Shown here piece by piece: positions 1-49,437 of a DNA stretch of 64,000 bases. Position numbers and translations under genes: made by a program. Position 1 is the stretch's first letter. The number at the start of each line of letters is the position of its first letter. Below the pieces are notes generated by a model. The model did no database searches. It saw nothing but the letters and a program-made list of their open reading frames with translations, and was not told the DNA's origin. The DNA is from Dehalococcoidia bacterium (lineage in GTDB: Bacteria; Chloroflexota; Dehalococcoidia; Bin125), in assembly GCA_965247775.1 (NCBI GenBank), contig OZ252031.1, positions 1,621,496 to 1,685,495 of the forward strand, in the 5' to 3' direction.

Positions 1-3167
<3,167 letters not shown>

Positions 3168-3189
3168 CGAGGCCGGAAAGGAGCGTCGC

Positions 3190-3981
3190 ATGACCTACGA
3201 GGACATCATCTACGAAGTGCAGGACGGCATCGCCCGGCTGACGCTGAACAAGCCGGAGAAGCTGAACGCGCTGTCCTGGGACACCTGGGCGGAGCTGGAA
3301 TCGGCCTGGACCGAGGCCCAGAACGACGACGGGACGAACGTGCTCCTGATGACCGGCGCCGGTCGCGCCTTCAGCGCCGGCACAGACCTGACCGCCCGCA
3401 CGACGGCGGGCCGCCCGCGCCCCTACCCGGGGCGGGTGGGGCAGCTACGCACGCGCCACCTGGGTCCTGCGCTGCTGTACAGCTTGCAGAAGCCGACGAT
3501 CGCGGCCGTGAACGGGGTCTGCGTGGGGGCCGGGCTGAGCATCGCCTGCGCCTGCGACATCCGCATCGCCTCGGAGGCGGCGCGCTTCAGCGCGATCTTC
3601 GTCAAGCGGGCGCTGAACGCGGATACGGGGTCGTCCTGGCACCTGCCGCGGCTGGTGGGGCGGGAGCAGGCGATGCGGATGCTGTTCACCGGTGAGATGG
3701 TACCGGCCGAGCGGGCCCTGGCGATGGGCCTGGTGAGCGAGCTGGCGCCGGCGGCGGAGCTGGAGGAGCGGGCACTGGCGCTGGCAGGGGAAATCGCGCG
3801 CGGTCCGTCTGTGGCCATTGAGATCATGAAGCGGCTGGTGCGGGAGAGCGAGACGACATCGTTGCGGAACCACATTGAGCTGGAGGAGTACCTGCAGCGG
3901 ATCACCTACCAGACGTCGGACGTGGAAGAGGGGCGACTCTCGTTTCTGGAGAAGCGGGAGCCGGTCTTCCGCGGTGGCTAG
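3190..3981 (+). CDS. Enoyl-CoA hydratase/isomerase (crotonase) family protein
   Basis: 263 aa, LNKPEKLNAL...GAGRAFSAGTDL...AAVNGVCVGAGL crotonase fold motifs. Confidence 0.8.
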   Translation: MTYEDIIYEVQDGIARLTLNKPEKLNALSWDTWAELESAWTEAQNDDGTNVLLMTGAGRAFSAGTDLTARTTAGRPRPYPGRVGQLRTRHLGPALLYSLQKPTIAAVNGVCVGAGLSIACACDIRIASEAARFSAIFVKRALNADTGSSWHLPRLVGREQAMRMLFTGEMVPAERALAMGLVSELAPAAELEERALALAGEIARGPSVAIEIMKRLVRESETTSLRNHIELEEYLQRITYQTSDVEEGRLSFLEKREPVFRGG

Positions 3982-4207
3982 GTGGCGCGGTAATCCCGGC
4001 GGGCGGCCGGCCATCGAGCACGGAGCGCATCGGACGCCGGGCTCTCCGGCGGCGAGACCGCGCCCGCGGGAACCCAGGAGAAGGGTGCGGCGTTAGGCCG
4101 ATCGTGCGGCCCCTCCCAGGCTGGGCCGTCCGCTTTCCGCCCCCGGGGGCGCGATATATAGTGGCCCGGGCGGCGCGGGCCGCCCATCTGTCGCCTGTCC
4201 GCTGAAG

Positions 4208-5278
4208 GTGCTCATGAGGCTCAACCCGCTGGCCTGGATACTCGGCCGCTTGTCGCACGACATCGGCATTGATCTGGGGACCGCGAACACGCTGGTCACC
4301 GTCAAAGAGCGCGGCATCGTCATCGATGAGCCGTCGGTCGTGGCGATCGATCGCAACACGAAAACCGTCCTCGCGATCGGCGCGGAGGCGAAGCGCATGG
4401 TGGGCCGGACACCCGCCAACATCGTCGCTGTGCGGCCGCTCAAGGACGGCGTCATCTCCGACTTCGACGTGGCGGAGAAGATGCTGCAGTATTTCGTCCG
4501 CGCGGTCCATGATCGCTTCGGCTGGGGCCTGCCGCGACCGCGGGTGGTGGTGGGGATGCCCTCGGGGGTCACGGAGGTGGAGAAACGGGCGATCTACGAC
4601 GCGGTCACCAACGCCGGCGCGCGCGAAGCCTTCCTCGTCGAGGAGCCGCTGGCCGCTGCCATCGGCGCCGGCCTCCCGATCCTGGACGCGAGCGGCACGA
4701 TGATCGTGGACATCGGTGGAGGCACGACGGAGGTGGCGGTGCTGGCGCTGGGCGGGATCGTCGTCAGCACGTCGATCCGGATCGCCGGCGACGAGGTGGA
4801 CGCGGACATCATCAGCTACGCCCGCCAGGTCCACAACATGTTGATTGGCGACCGCTCGGCGGAGGAGATTAAGATCGAGGCGGGATCGGCCTTCCCTCTG
4901 GAGCGGGAGCGCCCGGTGGTGCTGCGCGGGCGGGATCTATCGACGGGGCTGCCCAAGCGTGTGGAGATCAGCAGTGTGGAATTGCGGGACGCGCTGAGCG
5001 CGTCGATCAGCGGCATCGCGGGCGCCGTGCGGCAAACGATCGAGATCACGCCCCCGGAGCTGGTGGCGGACCTGATGAATCAAGGCATCGCTCTGGCGGG
5101 GGGCGGCGCTCTGTTAGCCGGGATGGACCGGCGAATTTCGCAAGAGACGAAATTCCCGGTGTACGTGGCTGAGGATCCGCTGACCTGCGTGGTCCGCGGC
5201 TGCGCCGAGGTCCTGGAGGAGGCGGAGATGCTGATGAAAGTCCGCTCGCAGATGACAACCTGGCGCGGGCGCCGTTAG
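4208..5278 (+). CDS. mreB: Rod shape-determining protein MreB
   Basis: IGIDLGTANTLV actin-like phosphate-1 motif, DIGGGTTEVAV; GTG start, possibly ATG at 4214. Confidence 0.9.
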   Translation: MLMRLNPLAWILGRLSHDIGIDLGTANTLVTVKERGIVIDEPSVVAIDRNTKTVLAIGAEAKRMVGRTPANIVAVRPLKDGVISDFDVAEKMLQYFVRAVHDRFGWGLPRPRVVVGMPSGVTEVEKRAIYDAVTNAGAREAFLVEEPLAAAIGAGLPILDASGTMIVDIGGGTTEVAVLALGGIVVSTSIRIAGDEVDADIISYARQVHNMLIGDRSAEEIKIEAGSAFPLERERPVVLRGRDLSTGLPKRVEISSVELRDALSASISGIAGAVRQTIEITPPELVADLMNQGIALAGGGALLAGMDRRISQETKFPVYVAEDPLTCVVRGCAEVLEEAEMLMKVRSQMTTWRGRR

Positions 5279-5281
5279 GGC

Positions 5282-6172
5282 GTGATGACGCTCCTGCAAT
5301 CCCGGCTAGGCCAGTGGCTACTGGGCATGGCGGCGCTCATCGTCTTACTCGCGACGCTGGCGGCGCTCGGCGTCGCGCAGCCCGTGGAGGAAGCGGCGTC
5401 GACCGTGTTCGGCCCCATTCAGCGCGGCCTGCGCCGAGCCGCGGAGCCTGTCGCGAACCTGGTGGAGAGCGTCGACGAGTTCGACACCGTCGATGATGAG
5501 AACCGGGCTCTCCGCAATCGCATCGAGCAACTGGAGGCGGAGACCGCCCGCCTGCGCGAGACGCAGATCCAATTCCGCGGGCGGGAGGCGCTGCTTGCGG
5601 TGCAAGAGGCCTCGGACGAGATCTTCCTGACGGCGGGCGTGATCACGCGCGACCTCACCGGCCTGCTGGACGTCATTGCCCTCGACCGGGGCAGCAACGA
5701 CGGCGTTGAAGAGGGCATGGCCGTGCTCGCCGCCGGTGGCAGCCTGGTAGGCACCATCATGGAGGTGCGCCCGGGGTCCTCCTTTGTCCGGCTGCTGACG
5801 GATCCCGGGGGCAGCGCGCGAACGTTGCACCAACTGAGCCGCTCCGAGGGCGTGGTCAGCGGCGATACGGGCGGCAACCTGCGGGTCGATTTCATCCCTC
5901 GCACCGCCGACGTGCAGCCAGGCCATCTGTTCGTGACATCGGGCCTAGGGGGGCTGCTGCCCAAGGGCATCCCGGTTGGCCGTGTCGTGTCGGCGGAGGG
6001 ATCGGCGCAAGAGGTCTTCATGCGGGTCCGGCTGGAACCACTGGCGCCGCTGGACGAACTCGAGCTGGTGCTGGTCCAGATCACCTTCCGCCCCGAACCG
6101 CTGCCCCCGCCGGGCAGCGAGGTCGCGGAGGACGGCGCGGAGACGCAGGCCGCGGAGACCGCGGCGCCATGA
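5282..6172 (+). CDS. mreC: Rod shape-determining protein MreC
   Basis: N-terminal TM, coiled coil (ENRALRNRIEQLEAETARL), C-terminal beta domain; sits directly after mreB. Confidence 0.7.
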   Translation: MMTLLQSRLGQWLLGMAALIVLLATLAALGVAQPVEEAASTVFGPIQRGLRRAAEPVANLVESVDEFDTVDDENRALRNRIEQLEAETARLRETQIQFRGREALLAVQEASDEIFLTAGVITRDLTGLLDVIALDRGSNDGVEEGMAVLAAGGSLVGTIMEVRPGSSFVRLLTDPGGSARTLHQLSRSEGVVSGDTGGNLRVDFIPRTADVQPGHLFVTSGLGGLLPKGIPVGRVVSAEGSAQEVFMRVRLEPLAPLDELELVLVQITFRPEPLPPPGSEVAEDGAETQAAETAAP

Positions 6173-17381: not shown

Positions 17382-17501
17382 GGCTGGCGATGGCCTATTT
17401 TCCGCAGGGGGTTGCCCCCCGAGTATCGTCAGCGCTGCGACGTTTCACTGCCGTGTTCGGGATGGGAACGGGTGGGGCCATCGCGCTCTAATCACCAGCA
17501 C
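17382..17501 (-). rRNA. rrf: 5S ribosomal RNA
   Basis: Minus-strand CCCGTTCCCATCCCGAACACGGCAGTGAAACG core matches the 5S loop B/C consensus; helix I closes GCUGGUGAU with AUCGCCAGC. Confidence 0.8.
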
Positions 17502-17531
17502 CGATGCTGCTGAGGGGTGGATCCGGCGGTC

Positions 17532-17607
17532 TGGTGGAGCCGAGGGGGGTCGAACCCCTGACCTCCGCCTTGCAAAGGCGGCGCTCTCCCAGCTGAGCTA
17601 CGGCCCC
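17532..17607 (-). tRNA. tRNA-Ala (anticodon TGC)
   Basis: Cloverleaf with G3:U70 and UGC anticodon; CCA encoded. Confidence 0.9.
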
Positions 17608-17622
17608 GGCGGGAGTGCAGGC

Positions 17623-17699
17623 TGGTGGGCCATCCTGGACTCGAACCAGGGACCTCAGTCTTATCAGGACTGCGCTCTAACCAGCTGAGCTAATGGCCC
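17623..17699 (-). tRNA. tRNA-Ile (anticodon GAT)
   Basis: Cloverleaf with CUGAUAA anticodon loop; typical rrn spacer tRNA. Confidence 0.9.
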
Positions 17700-17887
17700 G
17701 TGGCGTGGAGGCCGGATCGGTGGGCGACGCCGGGCCAGGCCGACGCCGCCTTAGCAGCTGGAGAGCGAAAGAGAACATGCTCCGGCGAGCGGACGGACGC
17801 CTGCGGGGCGCGTACCGGACGCGTTCCCCGCGAGCGATCGACCTGGAAGCCTGCCGACCCCACCGAGGGCCGGAGGGCACTCCCTAG

Positions 17888-19385
<1,498 letters not shown>

Positions 19386-28540: not shown

Positions 28541-28616
28541 GGCAGCGTAGCTCAGTTGGTAGAGCAGGGGACTCATAAGCCCTTGGTCGCAGGTTCGAGT
28601 CCTGCCGCTGCTACCA
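28541..28616 (+). tRNA. tRNA-Met (anticodon CAT; could be the lysidine-modified Ile2 species)
   Basis: Cloverleaf with CUCAUAA loop. Confidence 0.85.
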
Positions 28617-28631
28617 TCACGAGGCCGTTTG

Positions 28632-28708
28632 GGGCGATTAGCTCAGCTGGCTAGAGCGTCCGGTTCACATCCGGGAGGTCGCAGGTTCAAGTCCTGCATC
28701 GCCCACCA
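28632..28708 (+). tRNA. tRNA-Val (anticodon CAC)
   Basis: Cloverleaf with UUCACAU loop. Confidence 0.85.
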
Positions 28709-28720
28709 GCAGCGGTGCGC

Positions 28721-28807
28721 GCCGAAGTGGCGGAATTGGCAGACGCGCTACGTTCAGGGCGTAGTGTCCGCAAGGGCGTGGGAGTTCGAGTCTCCCCTTC
28801 GGCACCA
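28721..28807 (+). tRNA. tRNA-Leu (anticodon CAG)
   Basis: Class II tRNA with long variable arm, UUCAGGG loop. Confidence 0.85.
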
Positions 28808-28814
28808 AGCAGTC

Positions 28815-28891
28815 GCGCTCGTAGCTCAGTGGATTAGAGCGCTGCCCTGCGGAGGCAGAGGTCGTGGGTTCAAGTCCCGCCGAGCGCGCCA
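28815..28891 (+). tRNA. tRNA-Arg (anticodon reads GCG, not the usual ACG)
   Basis: Cloverleaf with anticodon stem CUGCC/GGCAG and loop CUGCGGA. Confidence 0.7.
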
Positions 28892-32204: not shown

Positions 32205-33566
<1,362 letters not shown>

Positions 33567-33624
33567 TGCAGTGGCGCCGCACGCCGTCGATCGGATCAGC
33601 GAGGAACTGGAGGCCAACCGGGCC

Positions 33625-34143
33625 ATGTTCGTCGCGCTGTGCCGGGCGTTGACGGGGGAGTTGGCGCGCCCGGTCCCGGGCGGGCACTGGAGCGTGGGCG
33701 ATCACGTCGCGCACATTGCCGCATACGACCGGCTGGCCGTCCACCACCTGGCTTCACGAGTCGTCGGAATGGACCCCCGTCCCCAGATGGATAGCGACGG
33801 CTGGAACGAGTCGGAGGTGCGGCAGCGGGCGGGGCGGACGTTGCCGGCGCTGCTGAGTGAGATGGGGGAATTGCGAGCCGCGGCGATGGCGCTGCTCACG
33901 GCCGTGCCGGAGCCGGCCTTGGACCGACACGTCTGGTTCCCGGGGGACGCGCGGCGGGCCGCGGGCGACGTCCCGCTGCGGCTCTGGCTGGAGCGCTGGA
34001 GCAAGCACGACATGATCCACGCCCGCGACATGCTGCGCGCCCTCCCGGCCCTGGCCGCCCATCGCGACTTCCAGAGCTGGCTGAGCGGCGATCCGTTGTT
34101 GGAGGCTCTGGCACGTGCAGAGGCTGGCCAGCGCGATGGCTGA
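33625..34143 (+). CDS. DinB_2 / mycothiol-maleylpyruvate-isomerase N-terminal-like protein
   Basis: HWSVGDHVAHIAAYDRLAVHHL His motif; ATG 33625 has GGAGG 11 nt upstream (alternative GTG 33571). Confidence 0.55.
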   Translation: MFVALCRALTGELARPVPGGHWSVGDHVAHIAAYDRLAVHHLASRVVGMDPRPQMDSDGWNESEVRQRAGRTLPALLSEMGELRAAAMALLTAVPEPALDRHVWFPGDARRAAGDVPLRLWLERWSKHDMIHARDMLRALPALAAHRDFQSWLSGDPLLEALARAEAGQRDG

Positions 34144-34669
34144 GCCGCGGCAGACCAGTTTGACCTCGGAGAGACTCGCGGCTTGGTGGCGAGACGGCAC
34201 GCGGGGCCCTCTGATCTCTGCGGCGCTGCGCGCGGGGCCACCGGGCGGCTGGCCGGCCGCGGCCTCTGCCCTGCCGCCGGACGAGAACTCCTCGGCGCGG
34301 CAACCGCCGGACCGGCCCACGCCGATCGCGGGCGACCTGCCCGAGGTCCAGGCCCTGCGCCTGGCGCTGCAGGGCGTGGGCCAGCCGATGGATACCGTTG
34401 GCCACTGGATCGGCGCGCTCAGGCTGGCCGCCGCGACGGCCGGACGGCGGCCCCTCGTTTGGTCGGCGGCGGAGGTGGCGACGCGCTGTGCGGATCTGGC
34501 CCAGGAGGGTCGCGGCGTCTGGTCGTTGTTGGAGGCCGTGCGCGTCCTCTGGGCCTGGCGCCCAGACGGGGCCTCCGCGGACGCGCAGGCATCGCGGCTT
34601 CTTGCACTCCTGCAGTCGGTGTTGACGACGCCGCTGCCCGCCAGCGAGCAGGAGGGCCCTGGGGCGTGA
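34136..34669 (+). CDS. Hypothetical protein (177 aa), translationally coupled
   Basis: ATG overlaps the upstream stop (ATGGCTGA); Ala/Leu/Trp-rich with no family recognised. Confidence 0.4.
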   Translation: MAEPRQTSLTSERLAAWWRDGTRGPLISAALRAGPPGGWPAAASALPPDENSSARQPPDRPTPIAGDLPEVQALRLALQGVGQPMDTVGHWIGALRLAAATAGRRPLVWSAAEVATRCADLAQEGRGVWSLLEAVRVLWAWRPDGASADAQASRLLALLQSVLTTPLPASEQEGPGA

Positions 34670-35553
34670 GCGGCCGGGACCCGGATCCGCCGCCGCAACG
34701 GGTCTCTCCCATCACCGTGCCGGACGAGGACCCGGCCCTGCCCGCGCCCGGAGCGGAGGCGCCGCGGCTGGTCCGCGACGCGTTCCGCGAGTTCCGCTTC
34801 GCCTGCACGAGGGAATCCCGCTGGATCGAGCGGTCACTGCACTTGCAGCGCGAGATCGTACGGGCCAGCAGCGGCAGCCGCTATCGCAACCATCGCTACG
34901 CGGCGGCGCTGCTGCTCTGGTCCCGGATCGACGCGGCCGCGCTGGAAGTCTGGCGGCTCACGGCCTGGGCCAATTATGCTCCGGCGCCCCCGCTGCTGCG
35001 GGCGATGCTGGAATGGCTGGCCGCGGAGCAGGCGATCGTGGGATCGGAGTTCGAGGAGTTCGCGGAGTATCTGCGGGCCTTCGCGGGCCATAACGCCGAG
35101 CACGCGGCGCTGGATCTGGGCATGGGCCAGTACATGGCGGGCCAGCAGATCGCGATGGCGCCGGATCTTGCGCCGGTCTATCGAGCGGCATCGGAGCTGG
35201 CGCGCCCGCACTTCGGGGCCTCCATCCTCCTGGCGGCCGCAGAGTCCAGCCGCCAGCGGGTGCTGGTGCACTGGGGTGACCGTAGTTTCCATTTGGGCTG
35301 GGCCCAGCTGCTCAGCGGCTGGCTGATGACGGTGCTGGCGCGCCAGACGCGCTTCGCCGTCGGGCGGGGGCTCTTCGCTGTCGATGCGGAGCAACGGGCA
35401 CGGTTCCAGACGCTGGCGCGGGAAGGGGACGCGATCCTGGGAGCGAGCGAGCGGTGCCGGGCGAGCTGGGTCACGGAGGCCGGGCGGCAGCGCCTGCTCC
35501 TGCAAGGGTTCCGCCGGCAGCCGTCGGGCGCGCCGCAGCGGCTGCTGCTGTAG
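34666..35553 (+). CDS. Hypothetical protein (295 aa), translationally coupled
   Basis: GTG start overlaps the upstream stop (GTGA); no family recognised. Confidence 0.4.
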   Translation: MSGRDPDPPPQRVSPITVPDEDPALPAPGAEAPRLVRDAFREFRFACTRESRWIERSLHLQREIVRASSGSRYRNHRYAAALLLWSRIDAAALEVWRLTAWANYAPAPPLLRAMLEWLAAEQAIVGSEFEEFAEYLRAFAGHNAEHAALDLGMGQYMAGQQIAMAPDLAPVYRAASELARPHFGASILLAAAESSRQRVLVHWGDRSFHLGWAQLLSGWLMTVLARQTRFAVGRGLFAVDAEQRARFQTLAREGDAILGASERCRASWVTEAGRQRLLLQGFRRQPSGAPQRLLL

Positions 35554-35698
35554 TGGCACCGCCGGACCAAGTTTCGGGCCGGCAGCGCTTGCCCCGGCGC
35601 GACGGATCGTGCAGGCTGCGCATCGACCGGGCGGGGCCAGCGCGCGGAGCGGCCCGGGGCGCGGCGTCAGCCCATCACCCCGCGGAGGAACAGCGACC

Positions 35699-36721
35699 AT
35701 GGCGACCAAAATCGGGATCAACGGGTTCGGCCGCATCGGCCGGCAGGTGCTGAAGGGCATCCTTGACCACCACCAGGACGACCTGGAGGTCGTGGCCCTG
35801 AACGACCTGACGGACCCTGAGACCAACGCCCATCTCTTCATGTACGACAGCACCTACGGACGTTATCCGGGCGAGGTGCGCGTCGAGGACGGGCGCCTCG
35901 TCATTGACGGACAGCGGATCGCCGTACTCGCCGAGCGCGACCCAGCGCAGATCCCTTGGGGGGATCACGGGGTGGAGATCGTGATCGAGTCGACCGGACG
36001 CTTCACCAACGCAGACGTCGCCAAGGGCCATCTGGTGAATGGGCCGCGCAAAGTGGTCATCTCGGCGCCGGCCAAGAATGAGGACCTCACCGTGGTGCTG
36101 GGCGTCAACGACGAGGCCTACGACCCCGCCAGGCACCACGTCGTGTCGAATGCCTCCTGCACCACGAACTGCCTGGCGCCGATGGCGAAGGTCCTGGACG
36201 AGGCCGTTGGCATTAAGGCGGGCATCATGTCCACCATCCACGCCTATACCAACGATCAGGTGATCCTAGACACCGTCCACTCCGACCTGCGCCGGGCGCG
36301 CGCCGCCGCGACGAACATCATCCCCACGAGCACGGGCGCGGCGCGGGCGGTGGGGCGGGTGCTGCCGCACCTGGACGGCAGGCTCAACGGCATGGCCTAC
36401 CGTGTGCCCACCGCCACCGTCTCGGTGGTGGACCTAACCGTGGAGGCGAAGCGCCCCACCAGCGCGGCGGAGGTCAACGCGGCCTTCAGCCGGGCGGCGA
36501 GCACACCGGAATCACCGCTCTACGGCATCCTCGCCGTGGAGGAGCGGCCTCTGGTGAGCAGTGACTTCCGGGGGAACCCGGCGAGTTCGATCATCGACGC
36601 GCCCAGCACGATGGTGCTGGAGGAGACACTGGTCAAGGTCGTCTCTTGGTACGACAACGAGTGGGCCTACAGTGTGCGCGTCGGCGACCTCTGTGCGCTC
36701 ATGGCAGAGCGCGGCATCTAG
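35699..36721 (+). CDS. gap: Glyceraldehyde-3-phosphate dehydrogenase, type I
   Basis: MATKIGINGFGRIGR Rossmann N-terminus, SNASCTTNCLAP active site. Confidence 0.95.
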   Translation: MATKIGINGFGRIGRQVLKGILDHHQDDLEVVALNDLTDPETNAHLFMYDSTYGRYPGEVRVEDGRLVIDGQRIAVLAERDPAQIPWGDHGVEIVIESTGRFTNADVAKGHLVNGPRKVVISAPAKNEDLTVVLGVNDEAYDPARHHVVSNASCTTNCLAPMAKVLDEAVGIKAGIMSTIHAYTNDQVILDTVHSDLRRARAAATNIIPTSTGAARAVGRVLPHLDGRLNGMAYRVPTATVSVVDLTVEAKRPTSAAEVNAAFSRAASTPESPLYGILAVEERPLVSSDFRGNPASSIIDAPSTMVLEETLVKVVSWYDNEWAYSVRVGDLCALMAERGI

Positions 36722-49023: not shown

Positions 49024-49100
49024 AGGAGTGTAGCTCAGTTTGGGAGAGCAGCGGTCTCCAAAACCGCAGGTCGGGGGTTCGAGTCCCTCCACTCCTGCCA
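49024..49100 (+). tRNA. tRNA-Trp (anticodon CCA)
   Basis: Cloverleaf with CUCCAAA loop. Confidence 0.9.
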
Positions 49101-49121
49101 GCGAGCGCTCCCAGGTCATGG

Positions 49122-49209
49122 GCCGAGGTGGTGGAACTGGTAGACACGCAGCGTTGAGGGCGCTGTGCCCGTTACGGGCGTAGGAGTTCGAGTCTCCTCC
49201 TCGGCACCA
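49122..49209 (+). tRNA. tRNA-Leu (anticodon GAG)
   Basis: Class II tRNA with long variable arm, UUGAGGG loop. Confidence 0.85.
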
Positions 49210-49260
49210 CCAGGGGGCAGCATCGCCGGTGAGCACGGGGCCGCGAGCGGAGTTGAACAA

Positions 49261-49335
49261 GCGGAAGTGGCGCAGCGGTAGCGCGTCTCCTTGCCAAGGA
49301 GAAGGTCGCGGGTTCAAATCCCGTCTTCCGCTCCA
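49261..49335 (+). tRNA. tRNA-Gly (anticodon GCC)
   Basis: Cloverleaf with UUGCCAA loop. Confidence 0.9.
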
Positions 49336-49363
49336 TCCCCCTCACCCCTTCCCTGCCCTCCGG

Positions 49364-49437
49364 GGCGACGTAGCCAAGTGGTAAGGCAAGGGTCTGCAAA
49401 ACCCCGATCACCGGTTCGAATCCGGTCGTCGCCTCCA
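49364..49437 (+). tRNA. tRNA-Cys (anticodon GCA)
   Basis: Cloverleaf with CUGCAAA loop; short D arm. Confidence 0.8.

What the first reader, a model, noticed from the sequence alone, without database searches (positions are those of the whole stretch)
33571..35553. Translationally coupled trio between eno and gap: DinB_2-like protein plus two proteins of unknown function
Three ORFs are chained by overlapping stop/start codons. The DinB-like ORF ends ...GATGGCTGA with the next ATG inside it, and that ORF's stop TGA is embedded in the GTGA start of the third. DinB_2-fold proteins are often thiol S-transferases or metal-dependent enzymes. The downstream 177-aa and 295-aa proteins are Ala/Leu/Trp/Arg-rich with no motif I can name. 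The tight coupling argues for a functional three-component unit in a housekeeping neighbourhood.
Basis: partly seen in the sequence, partly recalled or inferred. Interest (0 to 1): 0.55.

Follow-up and report, generated by a model that had tools for sequence, protein, structure and literature searches.

The report
Conserved unknown gene with swappable partners
The three chained genes between enolase and GAPDH are real, but only the third, an uncharacterised protein specific to Chloroflexota, is always kept, while the DinB-like enzyme and the middle protein are optional partners that relatives have lost or replaced.

Summary
Three ORFs on the + strand are chained: A 33571-34143, B 34115 or 34136-34669, and C 34666-35553. 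A starts 4 nt after the eno stop, A and B overlap, and B and C share GTGA. All three show coding-type GC3 (0.87), have homologues and evolve under purifying selection in relatives.

The "three-component unit" reading holds only in part. Of 59 informative species-level relatives, C is always present and B sits directly upstream of C in 48, usually with the same 4-nt overlap. A is present in only 6, with 3 more carrying decayed remnants, and the full trio occurs in 2. In more distant Chloroflexota, eno is followed directly by C. One clade instead has a translationally coupled J-domain protein in B's place.

- **A** is a DinB_2 protein with a conserved His triad.
- **B** is a new acidic helical family. 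Its model resembles the core-binding domain of tyrosine recombinases.
- **C** is a new family with a confident α+β model and no match among solved or viral structures. Its only sequence link is a sub-threshold similarity to DUF5677/AbiV.

C's function remains unknown. My best inference is that C is the core protein and that interchangeable upstream partners, made in linked amounts, bind or regulate it.

The parts
32271..33566 (+). eno (enolase), the upstream gene of the chain. Its stop TGA at 33564-33566 lies 4 nt before A's start.
   Evidence: ORF list. Pfam Enolase_N/C on orthologues at the same position.
33571..34143 (+). Gene A: a 190-aa DinB_2-family protein, probably a metalloenzyme. It starts at GTG with no SD, 4 nt after the eno stop. 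It is a facultative member of the locus.
   Evidence: Pfam DinB_2 at 51.4 bits (cut-off 24.8) and MDMPI_N at 31.6 bits. His48, His146 and His150 are invariant in 8 homologues. A profile search hits YfiT (1rxq) at E 8.6e-4, with the His positions aligned. GC3 is .87. A is present in 6 of 59 species loci.
34101..34105 (+). GGAGG Shine-Dalgarno-like motif, 9 nt upstream of GTG 34115 (B's start candidate), inside the 3' end of A.
34115..34669 (+). Gene B: 184 aa from GTG 34115, or 177 aa from ATG 34136. It overlaps A by 29 or 8 nt. It belongs to a new acidic all-helical family and is the usual translationally coupled partner of C.
34651..34655 (+). GGAGG Shine-Dalgarno-like motif, 10 nt upstream of C's GTG, inside the 3' end of B.
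34666..34669 (+). GTGA junction, where C's start codon overlaps B's stop codon by 4 nt.
   Evidence: Sequence. The same ATGA or GTGA overlap occurs in about 31-33 of 48 species with B.
34666..35553 (+). Gene C: a 295-aa core protein of the locus, restricted to Chloroflexota and of unknown function. The model shows a helical bundle plus a C-terminal beta-hairpin. It has 24 invariant residues, 8 of them Arg.
35554..35698 (+). 145-nt spacer between C and gap. It has no terminator-like site and no unusually stable fold. GGAGG lies 10 nt before the gap ATG.
   Evidence: z = +0.91; no Rfam hit.
35699..36721 (+). gap (GAPDH), the usual downstream neighbour of C, followed by ffh, rpsP, a KH-domain gene and rimM.

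Best explanation
The locus is a polycistronic stretch, eno-A-B-C(-gap), in which each downstream gene starts at or inside the end of the one before. The three proteins are therefore made from one mRNA in linked amounts. This much is shown by the sequence and by conservation of the junctions.

The fixed component is C, a soluble α+β protein specific to one part of Chloroflexota. It is inherited vertically and sits just downstream of eno and usually upstream of gap. A and B were added in the ancestor of one Dehalococcoidia clade and have since been lost independently in many lineages.

Inferred steps:
- B, an acidic helical protein with a conserved unstructured Pro-rich stretch, binds C as a stoichiometric partner or regulator.
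- In a sister clade a J-domain protein fills the same coupled position. This suggests the upstream partner acts as an adaptor or chaperone-type modulator of C rather than as an enzyme in a pathway.
- A is an independent metal-dependent DinB_2 enzyme, possibly thiol-dependent, that is merely co-expressed.
- C's eight invariant arginines suggest it binds an anionic ligand such as a nucleic acid, nucleotide or phosphorylated metabolite.

C's biochemical role is not established.
For: Chaining and coding signal.

Presence and absence across relatives: C is in all 60 species-level loci, B is next to C in 48 of 59 informative ones, and A is in 6 plus 3 pseudogene remnants. Of 115 loci with enough upstream sequence (some redundant), the tally is 47 B-C, 6 A-B-C, 4 A-C, 17 J-C, 28 with eno directly before C, 2 with a toxin-antitoxin pair before C, and 11 other.

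Tight coupling to C whatever lies upstream: B-to-C shows an ATGA or GTGA overlap. A-to-C shows TGATG, TAATG or GTGA in L011, L016, L017 and L018. J-to-C shows TGATG in L073.

Evolution: the NJ tree of C shows nested independent losses of A and B. B and C are under purifying selection. C's identity falls in step with that of eno and gap. C is absent from plasmid and phage collections and has no PADLOC or PHROGs hit.

Proteins: the structure models are confident. B is acidic, with a median pI of 5.0. B carries an invariant PDRP...DLPE stretch in a loop with no secondary structure. The J-domain partner is confirmed by Pfam DnaJ at 9.7e-20 and is conserved in 17 loci.
Against: No direct evidence exists that B or the J-protein binds C, because no multimer prediction could be run. 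Tight gene spacing may simply reflect operon compaction. B is missing in 11 of 59 species and in all distant clades, so C does not need it. The link between C and eno/gap may be inherited synteny without functional meaning, since the C-gap link is broken in about 9 of 60 species loci. The window's own B departs from the family at 24 of 72 well-conserved columns. That count is biased by sampling, because one large clade dominates the alignment. Against its closest relative, B shows dN/dS of about 1, from 12 non-synonymous and 5 synonymous changes. The excess over neighbouring genes is not significant (Fisher p = 0.10). B may therefore be under relaxed constraint in this lineage.
Confidence: 0.6

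Rival explanations
1. One reading: A, B and C are an obligate three-component functional unit, for example a DinB-type enzyme with two dedicated subunits.
For: The stop/start chaining is tight. The trio recurs in two sub-clades besides the window's own species: L008, L009, L013 and L057. A is inherited with the locus, at 47-59% identity that tracks the C tree.
Against: Only 2 of 59 species loci have all three genes. A-C, B-C and C alone all exist. A is decaying to a pseudogene in L022, L051 and L068 while C stays intact.
Confidence: 0.07
2. B is a cryptic, highly diverged J-domain-like co-chaperone, and C is a dedicated Hsp70 (DnaK) client or partner. On this view the B-C and J-C pairs are two versions of one Hsp70-linked module.
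For: A true J-domain protein is translationally coupled to C in 17 loci of a sister clade. The B family has a near-invariant W-H-P-D at the turn between its last two helices, which is the position of HPD in J domains (my own knowledge). Both partners carry a conserved Pro-rich linker.
Confidence: 0.12
3. B-C, or C alone, is a toxin-antitoxin, abortive-infection or other defence cassette lodged in a housekeeping operon.
For: The pair consists of two small coupled genes. The slot between eno and C holds real toxin-antitoxin cassettes in other lineages: DUF433 plus DUF5615 (PIN-like), and HicB-like ORFs. Weak hits link C members to DUF5677 (9 of 67, best E 0.009, with remote members at 5e-4) and one member to AbiV (E 0.037).
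Against: All those hits are below the curated cut-offs and cover only positions 1-48 of the 166-position DUF5677 model. PADLOC and PHROGs give no hit. Plasmids and phages give no hit. C holds a fixed chromosomal position, diverges vertically and is under strong purifying selection. C persists without B. A DUF5677 gene tested by others was not among the five candidates reported to give phage defence (PMC12632615).
Confidence: 0.08
4. C is functionally tied to lower glycolysis. It could be a regulator encoded just upstream of gap, in the position CggR occupies in Bacillus (my own knowledge), or a protein that binds phosphorylated three-carbon metabolites.
For: The order eno-C-gap is the commonest arrangement across very divergent Chloroflexota, down to C identities of 38-44%. 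C has eight invariant Arg plus invariant His, Ser and Tyr.
Against: No DNA-binding or enzyme fold was detected. The gap linkage is broken in several lineages. The neighbourhood uvrC-xer-eno-...-ffh-rpsP-rimM is syntenic as a whole, so adjacency may be historical.
Confidence: 0.1
5. B, C or both are chance ORFs of high-GC DNA rather than genes.
For: The window is 69.7% GC and is full of long shadow ORFs on both strands.
Against: GC3 is .87 in the proposed frames and about .5-.65 in the others. There are dozens to hundreds of homologues with invariant motifs. dN/dS is far below 1. The AF2 models are confident.
Confidence: 0.01

Closest known systems
DinB_2 / YfiT-like metalloproteins (Pfam PF12867; B. 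subtilis YfiT, PDB 1rxq), compared with gene A
   Same: A passes the Pfam gathering threshold. The three conserved His (48, 146, 150) align with the His-rich positions of YfiT.
   Different: The subfamily is found only in this locus context. A is only about 22 bits from YfiT by profile search. Its substrate and thiol cofactor are unknown. It is dispensable and repeatedly lost.
Core-binding (SAM-like N-terminal) domain of tyrosine recombinases (XerD 1a0p, Brujita Int 5vfz, IntI4 2a3v), compared with gene B
   Different: There is no sequence similarity (hhalign against the neighbouring Xer gives 0.07% probability). B has no catalytic domain. B is acidic (median pI 5.0), which does not suit DNA binding. 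It has an extra N-terminal three-helix part and a Pro-rich loop.
DUF5677 (PF18928) and the AbiV abortive-infection family (TIGR04498), compared with gene C
   Same: Both are helical proteins of similar size. Weak hits fall in a consistent register: residues about 75-123 of C homologues match positions 1-48 of DUF5677. One C member hits AbiV weakly.
   Different: Every hit is below the curated cut-off and covers under a third of the model. The window's own C gives no hit. C is a vertically inherited chromosomal gene in a housekeeping operon, not part of a mobile or defence island.
Operons pairing a J-domain protein with a dedicated partner, such as E. coli cbpA-cbpM (my own knowledge), compared with the J-C pair of the sister clade
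   Same: A J-domain gene is followed by a translationally coupled small partner gene.
   Different: C is unrelated to CbpM. The window itself has B, not a J-domain protein. No interaction has been shown.

Membership tests
DinB_2 (PF12867), gene A | Score above the Pfam gathering threshold | tested here: met
   51.4 bits against a cut-off of 24.8, E 1.9e-13, covering profile positions 1-127 of 128.
DinB_2 (PF12867), gene A | Conserved His triad for metal binding, as in YfiT | tested here: met
   His48, His146 and His150 are invariant in 8 homologues. They align to the HH...HHxxxH positions of YfiT 1rxq. Which YfiT residues bind the metal comes from my own knowledge. Metal binding itself was not tested.
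DinB_2 (PF12867), gene A | Four-helix-bundle fold and enzymatic (thiol-transferase or hydrolase) activity | not tested
DUF5677 / AbiV, gene C | Score above the curated cut-off for the family model | tested here: not met
   The window's C gives no hit. The best hit in the family is 20.6 bits against a cut-off of 27.1 (P0290). Nine of 67 members hit at E 0.009-0.13. One member hits AbiV at E 0.037.
DUF5677 / AbiV, gene C | Match over the whole domain | tested here: not met
   Only profile positions 1-48 of 166 are matched.
DUF5677 / AbiV, gene C | Defence-island, phage or mobile-element context | tested here: not met
   C holds a fixed position next to eno and gap. PADLOC, PHROGs, plasmids and phages give no hit.
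J domain (PF00226), gene B | Profile match to DnaJ | tested here: not met
   None of 41 B members hits DnaJ at E ≤ 10. hhalign probability is below 1%.
J domain (PF00226), gene B | HPD tripeptide in the loop between two antiparallel helices | tested here: inconclusive
   In the family, H is at least 90% conserved, P is invariant and D is at least 90% conserved, at the turn between helices 135-148 and 152-171. The window's copy reads RPD.
J domain (PF00226), gene B | J-domain fold | tested here: not met
Tyrosine-recombinase core-binding domain, gene B | Fold similarity | tested here: met
Tyrosine-recombinase core-binding domain, gene B | Sequence-profile membership (Phage_int_SAM families) and an attached catalytic domain | tested here: not met
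   No Pfam hit. No similarity to the neighbouring Xer. B is a stand-alone 184-aa protein.
Tyrosine-recombinase core-binding domain, gene B | Basic DNA-binding surface | tested here: inconclusive
   The whole protein is acidic, with median pI 5.0 and charge -7. The surface could not be examined because no model coordinates were available.
Type II toxin-antitoxin pair, genes B and C | Two small, adjacent, co-directional, coupled genes | tested here: met
Type II toxin-antitoxin pair, genes B and C | Recognisable toxin or antitoxin domains, with patchy and mobile distribution | tested here: not met
   No domains were found. C is universal and vertically inherited in the clade and persists without B.

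The most novel reading that the evidence does not exclude
C is the hub of a previously undescribed partner-switching module of Chloroflexota, embedded in the eno-gap operon. On this reading C is a protein with a new fold whose activity is controlled by interchangeable, translationally coupled escorts. One escort is a J-domain protein that would bring in Hsp70. The other is B, which carries an HPD-bearing helical hairpin and a similar Pro-rich docking stretch. B would then be either a convergent or an extremely diverged J-like adaptor.
Probability: 0.15. Interest if true: 0.6.

Novelty: new variant of a known kind. Interest (0 to 1): 0.35.

Why it matters
The practical result is better annotation. 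Two "hypothetical proteins" become two defined families with alignments, invariant residues and confident models, and their start codons are corrected. A is 190 aa, not the 172 aa of public gene calls, and B is probably 184 aa.

C is a lineage marker for a large, mostly uncultured group of Dehalococcoidia-type Chloroflexota. Several of the bins have names that I recall, untested, as sponge-microbiome bins. C always sits among core genes, so it probably has a housekeeping-level role that no current database describes.

The replacement of B by a J-domain protein gives a concrete, testable lead to what C does. The locus also illustrates that tight stop/start chaining does not by itself define a functional unit.

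Tried and rejected
- **Family libraries.** Pfam, NCBIfam, PADLOC and PHROGs were scanned with the window proteins and with every member of the B and C alignments. Nothing reached threshold for B or C.
- **Solved structures.** PDB sequence-profile searches gave nothing for C and only noise for B.
- **Single-sequence search with B.** It found only 2 near-identical proteins. This was a false negative of the word prefilter: tblastn on fetched loci then found B in 48 species.
- **Profile-profile comparisons.** hhalign of B against A, C, Xer and the J-protein showed no relationship.
- **B as a DinB paralogue.** This was suggested by 4 of 41 weak DinB_2 hits and was rejected by hhalign.
- **Membrane proteins.** Rejected, because the maximum 19-residue hydropathy is about 1.
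- **Regulatory RNA or terminator between C and gap.** Rejected.
- **Relaxed selection on the window's B.** Suggestive only, from 17 substitutions (Fisher p = 0.10).
- **Literature.** DUF5677 is mentioned only as an untested or negative defence candidate. Nothing was found on this locus.

Full report
**What is in the window.** Five genes lie in a row on the + strand. They are eno (32271-33566), A (33571-34143), B (34115 or 34136-34669), C (34666-35553) and gap (35699-36721), followed by ffh and rpsP. A's GTG lies 4 nt after the eno stop. A ends GAT GGC TGA, with an ATG at 34136 inside it. The window is 69.7% GC and full of shadow ORFs, so coding had to be shown. GC3 is .874.865 and .878 for A, B and C in the proposed frames, against .90 and .89 for eno and gap. 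The long upstream extension of C's frame has GC3 .63.

**Start codons.**
- C's GTG 34666 has GGAGG 10 nt upstream. The same 4-nt ATGA or GTGA overlap with B's stop occurs in about 31-33 of 48 species that have B.
- B can start at GTG 34115 or at ATG 34136. GTG 34115 has GGAGG 9 nt upstream and is used by public gene calls, and that exact 184-aa sequence is on record. ATG 34136 has only GAGG at 12 nt. The N-termini of relatives vary in length, so they do not decide the matter.
- A must start at GTG 33571. The invariant ELEANR motif lies upstream of the next ATG, which public calls used to give 172 aa.

**Comparative genomics.** C has at least 160 homologues of 290-300 aa, all labelled "hypothetical" and all from Chloroflexota or Dehalococcoidia metagenome bins. 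A single-sequence search with B found only two near-identical proteins, but that was a prefilter artefact. I fetched 60 species-representative genome loci with C and ran tblastn with all window proteins. The results were:
- C is present in all 60 loci.
- B, at 40-51% identity, lies directly upstream of C in 48 of the 59 informative loci.
- A is present in 6: L011, L013, L016, L017, L018 and L057.
- Three more loci (L022, L051, L068) carry a frameshifted remnant of A in a 467-nt spacer.
- Four loci have eno followed directly by C.
- The full trio occurs in L013 and L057, in the window's own species (L006, L007) and in two metagenome contigs (L008, L009).

In most B-only genomes the xer-eno segment is inverted, so B-C goes with gap-ffh and not with eno. 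A neighbour-joining tree of C shows nested, independent losses. One sub-clade runs A+B, then A only, then neither. Another runs A+B, then A only, then an A pseudogene. A third, large sub-clade has B only.

**More distant lineages.** A second scan used an alignment of distant C homologues, 37-42% identical to the window's C. It returned 80 metagenome loci. There, eno is usually followed directly by C and then gap. In one clade a 237-aa J-domain protein (Pfam DnaJ, E 9.7e-20) occupies the position of B in 17 loci. Other lineages carry a DUF433 plus DUF5615 (PIN-like) pair or a HicB-like ORF in the slot.

Over 115 loci with enough upstream sequence (some redundant), the tally is:

| Arrangement upstream of C | Loci |
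|---|---|
| B-C | 47 |
| A-B-C | 6 |
| A-C | 4 |
| J-C | 17 |
| eno directly before C | 28 |
| toxin-antitoxin pair before C | 2 |
| other | 11 |

Whatever gene lies upstream abuts or overlaps C's start. A-to-C shows TGATG, TAATG or GTGA, and J-to-C shows TGATG.

**Gene A.** A scores 51.4 bits against Pfam DinB_2 (cut-off 24.8) and also passes MDMPI_N. His48, His146 and His150 are invariant. They align with the His-rich sites of YfiT, PDB 1rxq (profile E 8.6e-4). A is an ordinary new member of the DinB_2 superfamily. Its substrate is unknown.

The window's copy is the most deviant member of the family, differing at 24 of 72 well-conserved columns. That count is biased by sampling, because one large clade dominates the alignment. 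Against L006, B shows 12 non-synonymous and 5 synonymous changes (dN/dS about 0.95), while its neighbours show 0.2-0.36. The excess is not significant (Fisher p = 0.10).

The only sequence lead is sub-threshold. Nine of 67 members, plus two remote members, hit Pfam DUF5677 (best E 5e-4, 20.6 bits against a cut-off of 27.1). The hits always align residues about 75-123 to model positions 1-48 of 166. One member hits AbiV at E 0.037. DUF5677 itself is uncharacterised. In one screen for antiphage genes, a DUF5677 gene was among nine candidates tested, and it was not among the five reported to give defence (PMC12632615). C is absent from the plasmid and phage collections, and PADLOC and PHROGs give nothing.

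**Synthesis.**
- *Shown:* a polycistronic, translationally chained arrangement. C is the invariant, vertically inherited element. A and B are real genes but dispensable. The position upstream of C is filled by different genes in different clades.
- *Inferred, about 0.5:* B binds C. The grounds are the conserved 4-nt coupling, the acidic partner and a conserved unstructured motif typical of a docking peptide.
- *Inferred more weakly:* the upstream partner modulates or escorts C, because a J-domain protein holds the same coupled position elsewhere.

One detail remains unexplained. B has a near-invariant W-HPD at the turn between its last two helices, and a Pro-rich stretch (PPPDRPPARVVDLPE) that resembles the J-protein's (VPPKRPAHVH..P.IEPEE). 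Even so, profile and fold comparisons give no support for B being a J domain, and the window's copy reads RPD.

**Rivals.** The rival readings are an obligate trio, a toxin-antitoxin or defence cassette, a glycolysis regulator and chance ORFs. They are weighed in the rival-explanations section of this report, and none is better supported.

**Verdict.** This is not a three-component machine. It is a core gene of unknown function with optional partners. Novelty is moderate: there are two unnamed families, and one has a fold with no solved relative. Interest is modest unless the Hsp70 or partner-switching lead holds.

**Limits.** No complex prediction or AlphaFold-database comparison could be run. 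Absence of A or B was judged only within about 6 kb of C. All relatives are metagenome-derived.

Noticed in passing
window 17382-19385 (- strand): The rRNA unit reads 16S (19385-17888), tRNA-Ile, tRNA-Ala, then 5S (17499-17382) only 32 nt after tRNA-Ala. No 23S hit appears anywhere in the 64-kb window at Rfam gathering scores. The 23S gene therefore seems to be unlinked from a 16S-tRNA-tRNA-5S unit.
   Followed up: partly
window 28541-28891 and 49024-49437 (+ strand): Two tight tRNA clusters: Met, Val, Leu, Arg and Trp, Leu, Gly, Cys.
   Followed up: no
L019-L072, around locus coordinates 2900-5450: In the large B-only clade the xer-eno segment is inverted relative to B-C-gap. The Xer recombinase gene and B are then divergent neighbours about 220-290 nt apart.
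   Followed up: partly
L073:4288-5001 and 16 further loci (L077-L095, L109, L113): A 237-aa protein lies between eno and C and overlaps C's start codon (TGATG). It has an N-terminal J domain, a Pro-rich linker and a conserved beta-rich C-terminal domain.
   Followed up: partly
L022, L051 and L068, about 5550-6000: The 467-nt eno-C spacer holds frameshifted fragments that still read like the DinB gene (…EAVETNCAMF…, …WSPWGVMHAHDILRA…). This is a decaying pseudogene of A.
   Followed up: partly
L004:4280-4965; L120:897-1190; L131:665-904; L155:997-1239: Other small cassettes sit in the slot upstream of C: a DUF433 plus DUF5615 (PIN-like) pair and HicB-like ORFs of about 80 aa. The position seems to be an insertion hot spot.
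   Followed up: partly
L052:5444-6229: B's reading frame runs on for 238 nt into C. This is either a lost stop codon or an assembly error.
   Followed up: no
P0312 (505 aa) and L009: P0312 joins the enolase C-terminal domain to the N-terminal half of C. L009 has eno, A, B and gap all split. Both look like frameshift errors in assemblies rather than biology.
   Followed up: no
window 34559-34567 (B codons 149-151, counted from GTG 34115): The window's B reads RPD where the family has a near-invariant HPD. Between the window and L006, B has 12 non-synonymous and 5 synonymous changes, while its neighbours show dN/dS of 0.2-0.36. This may mean relaxed constraint, but it is not significant (p = 0.10).
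   Followed up: yes
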